DNA of 64,000 nucleotides, from assembly GCA_951406725.2 (NCBI GenBank), contig OX597822.1, forward strand, positions 39,184,001 through 39,248,000, written 5' to 3'. Source of the stretch: Octopus vulgaris. Its lineage: Eukaryota. Below the pieces are notes generated by a model. It saw only the letters and a program-made list of their open reading frames with translations. It was not told the DNA's origin and made no database searches. The translations under genes were made by a program, and so were the position numbers. Positions 32,125 through 32,331 of the stretch are shown here, piece after piece (position 1 is the stretch's first letter; each line of letters starts with the position of its first letter).

Positions 32125-32331
32125 AATTTATACGTAATGGCCTCCTTCTCTTCCGGTTTCCTAGTCATTGTTTTTTCAATCTAATTCTCCTCGTCTTTGG
32201 TTTCTCTTCCGTGTAAACATCCAGTAATGCTCCTGTAGAGTGGTTATTCGCTATCAGAATGGGCAATGCACTTCGGTTACCATTGACCATTATCAATTGA
32301 GAGTTTTGCCAACATTTTACACTCGGAGGAT
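32125..32331 (-). CDS. Coding exon 7 with TGA at 32167-32165 and 40 nt of in-frame post-stop sequence
   Basis: tttctttgtccag|AT CCT...; [68 protein letters not shown]; donor T|gtgagt at 32124. Confidence 0.85.
32161..32170 (-). promoter_or_regulatory. Stop-codon readthrough context CAA-UGA-CUAG
   Basis: The minus strand reads AAA CAA TGA CTA GGA. UGA-CUA(G) is an established leaky context in metazoan mRNAs and alphaviruses. Confidence 0.7.

What the first reader, a model, noticed from the sequence alone, without database searches (positions are those of the whole stretch)
32125..32200. Candidate programmed stop-codon readthrough (CAA-UGA-CUAG) exactly at the prodomain / furin-site boundary of a TGF-beta-like gene
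Seen: the ORF ends ...[15 protein letters not shown] and continues in frame CTA GGA AAC CGG AAG AGA AGG AGG CCA TTA CGT ATA AAT T|gtgagt = LGNRKRRRPLRIN. The donor is phase 1, like the five preceding introns. Established: UGA-CUAG is among the leakiest known metazoan readthrough contexts (e.g. AQP4, OPRL1, MAPK10), upstream adenines favour readthrough, and R-x-K/R-R is the furin site that separates TGF-beta prodomains from ligands. Inference: ribosomes make a 332-aa protein and a readthrough form of at least 346 aa with an added polybasic, furin-cleavable tail. The tail could change matrix or heparan-sulfate retention. If a ligand exon exists further downstream, readthrough could instead gate growth-factor production.
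Basis: partly seen in the sequence, partly recalled or inferred. Interest (0 to 1): 0.92.

Follow-up and report, generated by a model that had tools for sequence, protein, structure and literature searches.

The report
Leaky stop on ligand-less TGF-beta gene
An octopus gene makes only the carrier half of a TGF-beta growth factor and ends in a stop codon of a known leaky type, but reading through adds just 14 residues and no growth factor, so the leak is probably incidental and the gene's likelier job is to bind growth factors made by other genes.

Summary
The CAA-TGA-CTAG context, the 13 in-frame codons and the phase-1 donor are real. The gene encodes a 320-aa secreted TGF-beta prodomain, identical to a named Octopus vulgaris record. 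O. bimaculoides, O. sinensis and Argonauta proteins stop at the same residue, so this is no private allele or assembly error. Spliced contigs from 4 of 4 runs carry the TGA unchanged and join 32125 to an exon at 30796; the junction itself forms TAA. Readthrough therefore gives 334 aa, not 346 or more. No ligand exon was found within about 230 kb or genome-wide, so ligand gating is rejected. The position of the family's furin site lies just before the stop, not after it. The gene belongs to a mollusc/arthropod (anachronism-like) group that often lacks the ligand; its ligand-binding helix is kept. A leak of a few percent is plausible from vertebrate reporter data. Selection on the extension is untested because no diverged cephalopod DNA was reachable; codon use is neutral and there is no stimulatory structure or SECIS. 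Best reading: ligand-less prodomain with a probably incidental leaky stop (0.6); selected readthrough 0.25.

The parts
61849..62084 (-). first coding exon (start codon, hydrophobic signal-peptide-like helix, low-confidence linker); phase 2 intron follows
   Evidence: exon set reproduces P0001 exactly; helix 4-29 in model
40821..40957 (-). coding exon 2: alpha-1 helix and latency lasso of the TGF-beta prodomain (ligand-binding part)
38430..38579 (-). coding exon 3 (arm domain)
36604..36681 (-). coding exon 4 (arm domain, CxC)
35067..35261 (-). coding exon 5 (arm domain; PF00688 match)
   Evidence: its 3' end is the loose end at 32331 in 4 of 4 runs
32125..32331 (-). exon 6: end of prodomain, basic tail, stop and 40 nt beyond the stop; single copy in the genome
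32171..32191 (-). basic stretch R313-K319 (RxxR; RVRR in Argonauta) at the position of the family's furin site, upstream of the stop
32161..32167 (-). TGA stop (32167-32165) plus CTAG leaky context
   Evidence: unchanged in contigs of 4 of 4 runs
32126..32164 (-). 13-codon potential readthrough extension, with RKRR at 32155-32144
   Evidence: codon use not distinguishable from background
30797..32124 (-). phase-1 intron 40 nt downstream of the stop; splicing creates the second stop TAA (T 32125 + AA 30796-30795)

Best explanation
A secreted, prodomain-only member of the TGF-beta family. Its ancestor had a ligand domain; a stop became fixed right at the old furin boundary before Octopus and Argonauta split, so the ribosome now ends where furin used to cut. 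SHOWN: gene structure, fold, shared stop position, splice that makes a second stop, no ligand found. INFERRED: the 13 basic codons and the phase-1 intron behind the stop are left over from the old linker and ligand N-terminus (or are chance 3' UTR); UGA-CUAG leaks at roughly 1-7%, giving a minor 334-aa form with little consequence; the 320-aa protein works by binding TGF-beta-family ligands of other genes in trans through its conserved alpha-1 helix and lasso, as a trap or carrier, held in matrix by its basic tail.
For: Exons reproduce the 320-aa record exactly. Same C-terminus in O. bimaculoides, O. sinensis and Argonauta (77% identical). PF00688 only, no PF00019; top folds pro-activin, pro-BMP9, pro-TGF-beta; closest solved sequence is pro-myostatin. 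47 of 63 homologues score no ligand domain; in the mollusc-containing clade 4 of 23 rows keep one, and the ligand-bearing Solemya protein's only match in this genome is this gene. Stop at +21 against family furin P1 at +16 to +23. Two or more R-x-K/R-R matches occur in 4 of 12 other octopus TGF-beta segments examined, so extra basic clusters need no readthrough. In human only 4 of 23 UGA-CUAG genes have coding signatures although all 17 tested contexts leak 1.3-6.7% (PMC5868278, passages). A second, unnamed clade (P0006, P0078) ends about 22 residues earlier and has neither this stop nor the basic tail. Model of prodomain with an octopus myostatin-like ligand dimer: 0.66, best of 3 controls 0.06, mark reached by 51 of 78 solved and 2 of 108 mismatched pairs, runs agree in at least 81% of contacts, partner pLDDT at least 71, contacts at L85/I88/I92/L96; like complexes are solved, so this shows likeness only.
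Against: The context is rare: CTAG after TGA 12 of 7891 locally, furin site within 20 codons 1.0%; both together are unlikely for random 3' UTR. A relic has to survive unselected since the Argonauta split. The relic reading has no significant support: best profile score 1.9 bits, 58 open codons occur at 9% of random positions, the LKKQ-L likeness to a scallop tail was reached by 783 of 5000 shuffles. Some 'no ligand' homologues may be incomplete models or fragments. No leak was measured in octopus cells, and trans-binding is not shown.
Confidence: 0.6

Rival explanations
1. Selected, programmed readthrough: a few percent of ribosomes insert a residue at UGA and add 13 residues with six K/R, making a 334-aa isoform that sticks harder to heparan sulfate or is processed differently, tuning the range of a secreted ligand trap.
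For: Exact UGA-CUAG core, which is optimal in human deep mutagenesis (764 of 765 changes lower readthrough; 10.64898/2026.07.14.738498, section 7). Rare context plus rare basic cluster (6 or more K/R in 13 codons at 0.5% of positions). Structure is not needed for this class (PMC4132726, passages). The stop is 40 nt from the last junction, inside the recalled 50-55-nt NMD-escape distance.
Against: No conservation data beyond near-identical samples (0 differences in 207 nt, so uninformative). Codon use neutral: 1175 of 3000 background frames score as well (low power). The tail is already basic and an upstream RxxR/RVRR could cut the extension away. The sister clade stops earlier. Human base rate 4 of 23.
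Confidence: 0.25
2. A-to-I editing of UGA to UGG (cephalopods edit heavily; passage) produces the same extension in some tissue.
For: General prevalence of editing in octopus and squid; a 322-nt, 89% inverted repeat lies in the intron just upstream.
Against: No T>C difference at 32165 in 4 of 4 runs (contigs drop rare variants). The stop A is unpaired in two of three folding windows (P 0.01, 0.02, 0.46) and no complementary partner exists in the window.
Confidence: 0.05
3. Readthrough gates production of a growth factor encoded further downstream.
For: Frame stays open for 58 codons after the second stop and holds KRKR plus a Cys; relatives carry a ligand.
Against: Needs two readthroughs (TGA, then TAA-A). 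PF00019 gave 14 matches genome-wide, the only one on this contig about 80 Mb away. Two custom ligand profiles found nothing better than E 0.88 and 1.4 over the window plus 200 kb downstream. The Solemya ligand has no match in the genome.
Confidence: 0.02
4. Private nonsense allele, pseudogene or assembly error.
For: None found.
Against: Same stop position in four named species; TGA in contigs of 4 of 4 runs; intact, conserved 320-aa frame.
Confidence: 0.01

Closest known systems
UGA-CUAG readthrough genes of vertebrates (AQP4, OPRK1, OPRL1, MAPK10; also VDR, MDH1)
   Same: Identical seven-base core; short extension (MAPK10's is 13 residues); no RNA structure needed (PMC4132726, PMC5868278, passages).
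   Different: There the motif and extension are conserved across vertebrates and leak was measured. Here neither is tested, the second stop is made by splicing, and the protein is a secreted mollusc protein.
Drosophila Anachronism and arthropod relatives (prodomain-type secreted glycoproteins)
   Same: Atlas ranks the 'protein anachronism' cluster second for this protein (0.96, 204 of 256 features) and first for an arthropod-clade homologue. A 21-row clade holding the named insect hits lacks ligands. Ana is a glia-secreted glycoprotein that inhibits neuroblast proliferation (cited title seen in PMC2174950).
   Different: The octopus gene sits in a separate, mollusc-containing clade, so ligand loss looks independent. 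No Drosophila sequence was compared directly; orthology is not shown.
Myostatin/activin/TGF-beta prodomains (PF00688), e.g. pro-myostatin 6umx, pro-activin 5hly
   Same: Same fold and conserved amphipathic alpha-1 helix and lasso. Free myostatin propeptide inhibiting its ligand in trans is recalled, not checked.
   Different: No mature cystine-knot domain in cis; the protein ends at the cleavage position.
Panda/Maverick/GDF15-like divergent TGF-beta ligands
   Same: Poorly resolved protostome-deuterostome group with divergent ligands, including mollusc members (PMC11239237, passages).
   Different: Those act through the mature domain, which this gene lacks; membership not tested.

Membership tests
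Programmed UGA-CUAG readthrough | UGA followed by CUAG in the mature mRNA | tested here: met
Programmed UGA-CUAG readthrough | open frame to a second stop | tested here: met
   13 codons, then TAA made by splicing
Programmed UGA-CUAG readthrough | motif and extension conserved across diverged species | not testable with these tools
   no diverged cephalopod DNA: searches found none; laid runs identical to the window over the exon
Programmed UGA-CUAG readthrough | coding-like signature of the extension | tested here: inconclusive
   codon score at background, 1175 of 3000; test has little power at 13 codons
Programmed UGA-CUAG readthrough | measured readthrough (reporter, ribosome profiling, peptide) | not testable with these tools
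   no such data in reach
Selenocysteine recoding | SECIS element in the 3' UTR | tested here: not met
   no Rfam match at gathering score in 22000-32400; no SECIS at E up to 10 in 30420-30810
TGF-beta family precursor | signal peptide plus prodomain fold | tested here: met
   PF00688 E 5.9e-12; Foldseek; signal peptide judged by eye and from the model helix
TGF-beta family precursor | furin site followed by cystine-knot ligand in the same frame | tested here: not met
Anachronism-like prodomain-only proteins | secreted glycoprotein with prodomain and no ligand | tested here: met
   10 N-glycosylation sequons; no ligand
Anachronism-like prodomain-only proteins | orthology with Drosophila ana | tested here: inconclusive
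   feature similarity only; separate clade in a quick tree without Drosophila

The most novel reading that the evidence does not exclude
Octopods keep a selected UGA-CUAG readthrough that arose by a stop falling into the old furin linker of a TGF-beta gene as it lost its ligand. One secreted ligand-trap gene then yields a diffusible 320-aa form and a more matrix-bound 334-aa form, with the second stop built by a splice junction. It would be a programmed-readthrough case in a mollusc (none turned up) on a ligand-less TGF-beta group that my searches did not find described.
Probability: 0.2. Interest if true: 0.65.

Novelty: new member of a known kind. Interest (0 to 1): 0.36.

Why it matters
If the leak is selected, it extends functional stop-codon readthrough to cephalopods and to control of an extracellular signalling protein, and one genome alignment can decide it. 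If not, the lasting result is the gene itself: an expressed, conserved TGF-beta prodomain without ligand, in a group that seems to have lost the ligand repeatedly in molluscs and arthropods. That offers a testable mechanism (ligand trapping in trans) for anachronism-like proteins.

Tried and rejected
Ligand exon: motif scan of the window (output partly cut), PF00019 genome-wide, profiles from 11 octopus ligands and 13 family tails over the window plus 200 kb, Solemya protein against the genome: nothing. Exon 7 as decayed ligand: at most 1.9 bits, not significant. LKKQ-x-L likeness to a scallop tail as sign of a CGA-to-TGA origin: 783 of 5000 shuffles, rejected. 3' stimulatory structure: z between -0.88 and 0.74 in five windows, 0.45 in a sixth. 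SECIS: none (79, 80; one search was swamped by TA-repeat matches and 129 of 279 rows were not shown). Alternative phase-1 donor upstream of the stop that would skip it: no loose end there among the 19 shown (4 not shown). Diverged orthologous DNA: two metagenome scans, short-fragment protein search and earlier scan notes (35, 51, 65, 87) gave nothing. Sequencing-run search: no RNA holder listed on record; the runs laid are taken as RNA-derived because they join exons. The tree (82) is the quick search, 4 short rows dropped, and the 'ligand' label is partly circular: Pfam puts P0007, P0015 and P0027 over the cut-off, P0023 is weak, P0010 is not detected.

Full report
Observation. On the minus strand the frame ends in Gln-TGA (32167-32165), followed by CTAG and 13 open codons, then a GT donor at 32124. 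Six exons (62084-61849, 40957-40821, 38579-38430, 36681-36604, 35261-35067, 32331-32125) reproduce exactly the 320-aa protein P0001, a named Octopus vulgaris record whose cluster holds O. bimaculoides and O. sinensis proteins. Intron phases are 2,1,1,1,1 and 1 for the intron behind the stop. The exon is single-copy. In 470,856 unmasked local bases (both strands) CTAG follows 12 of 7891 TGA triplets, and 1.0% of 92,975 random positions give an R-x-K/R-R within 20 open codons. The arrangement is uncommon, but a genome holds tens of thousands of stops; human has 23 UGA-CUAG genes (PMC5868278, passages).

The stop is old and real. O. bimaculoides, O. sinensis and Argonauta hians (77% identical) proteins all end at the same Gln. 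I laid 4 of the 24 listed runs (3 studies, 4 coded organism labels) on 31070-32345. Each has a contig over 32125-32331 with no other letters, so the TGA is neither an error nor visibly edited (contigs drop rare variants). In all four the loose end at 32331 is the end of exon 5 and the loose end at 32125 is the start of an exon at 30796 (matched by eye). One run also has a contig running into the intron at depth 14.2 against 1324.7. The junction joins T to AA, giving TAA, so readthrough yields 320+1+13 = 334 aa. The runs are identical to the window over the exon, so they say nothing about selection.

No ligand. Pfam finds only the propeptide. PF00019 over the genome gave 14 matches, the only one on this contig about 80 Mb away. 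Profiles from 11 octopus ligands and from 13 family tails found nothing better than E 0.88 and 1.4 over the window plus 200 kb downstream. The ligand-bearing Solemya relative matches only exon 5 of this gene in the whole genome. The frame after the second stop stays open for 58 codons with KRKR and one Cys, but scores at most 1.9 bits against the family profile, and 9% of random positions are open that long. Ligand gating is rejected. A very divergent ligand in tiny exons cannot be formally excluded, but the observed splice already ends in a stop.

Family. The HMMER search gave 63 relatives; 16 score a ligand domain and 47 do not (the label is partly circular, and some records may be partial). 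In a quick tree of 61 rows (4 short rows dropped) the octopod proteins and two unnamed Logan proteins form a clade (100) inside a 23-row group (99) holding the named molluscs, 4 rows of which keep a ligand; a separate 21-row ligand-less clade (99) holds the named insects. The Atlas places an anachronism cluster second for this protein and first for a member of that second clade (one source of evidence). The model (pLDDT 76) matches pro-activin, pro-BMP9 and pro-TGF-beta; the family profile's best solved sequence is pro-myostatin. The two Logan proteins, probably other cephalopods (inference), end about 22 residues earlier and lack the basic tail.

Where the furin site is. Counted from the last strand motif, 9 of 22 other rows (Argonauta aside) have R-x-K/R-R, with P1 at +16 to +23; this protein has RxxR at +17 and ends at +21, and Argonauta has RVRR at +15. 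The RKRR past the stop falls at +29. So the stop follows the ancestral cleavage position instead of guarding it. Cleavage upstream would remove the extension. The 320-aa tail already has 7 K/R in 12 residues. Two or more R-x-K/R-R matches occur in 4 of 12 other octopus TGF-beta segments, so a second basic cluster is what a left-over linker would look like. Direct support for a relic is weak.

Mechanism. In human cells all 17 tested UGA-CUAG contexts leak 1.3-6.7%, yet only 4 of 23 show coding conservation. CUAG is the optimum of 256 four-base contexts and the -1 codon matters (10.64898/2026.07.14.738498, abstract and sections 7 and 10; the value for CAA is in a figure I could not see). No structure is needed (PMC4132726, passages) and none is predicted here; no SECIS. 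Codon use of the extension is at background (1175 of 3000). I infer a leak of a few percent (about 0.7 likely) that is more likely incidental than selected. The main product keeps the amphipathic helix and lasso (L85, I88, I92, L93, L96 invariant in the four-sequence alignment). A model with an octopus myostatin-like ligand dimer scored 0.66 against a best control of 0.06 (mark reached by 51 of 78 solved and 2 of 108 mismatched pairs; at least 81% contact agreement; pLDDT at least 71), using those residues. Similar complexes are solved, so this shows retained likeness, not binding or which ligand.

Literature. Searches for octopus readthrough (5 listed; one passage read), invertebrate UGA-CUAG (36; passages, 38), readthrough with furin and prodomain (85, none), this gene's accessions (69, none) and ligand-less prodomains (30 none, 33 one unrelated, 48 four listed, 70 none) found no description. 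PMC5100048 (passages) confines abundant readthrough to Pancrustacea and has no mollusc term in its main text. No supplements were read; editing-site or readthrough tables could bear on this. Subscription journals are not covered.

Verdict. The sequence observation holds with corrections; the ligand-gate idea fails; selected readthrough stays open at about 0.25 and is decidable by one cross-species DNA alignment that these tools could not supply. New member of a known kind; interest 0.36.

Noticed in passing
window 32544-33188: 322-nt, 89% complementary inverted repeat with almost no loop in intron 5, about 210 nt from the exon 6 acceptor; a likely long dsRNA in the pre-mRNA and possible editing substrate. 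It does not pair with the stop region.
   Followed up: partly
proteins P0006, P0078 (unnamed Logan records): Sister clade of 10 sequences of 297-305 aa; the 8 whose sequence I read end just before the strand motif and basic tail kept in octopods.
   Followed up: partly
window 30620-30612: The third in-frame stop is also followed by CTA (TAA-CTA-C), seen; probably chance.
   Followed up: no
L020 (G000:C27 near 31344891): Weak TGF_beta match (E 0.04): a divergent ligand C-terminus at the end of a long His/Asn-rich frame; an odd family member.
   Followed up: no
L011 and L012 (G000:C23 near 28.29 and 28.33 Mb): Two inverted copies of a BMP5-8-like gene with identical ligand exon translation: recent duplication or assembly duplicate. 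L013 and L015 on C27 are two myostatin-like genes about 300 kb apart.
   Followed up: no
window 1-885 and 4771-5615: Fragment of a non-LTR reverse transcriptase (RVT_1) and a broken Tc1/mariner-type transposase; ordinary repeats.
   Followed up: partly
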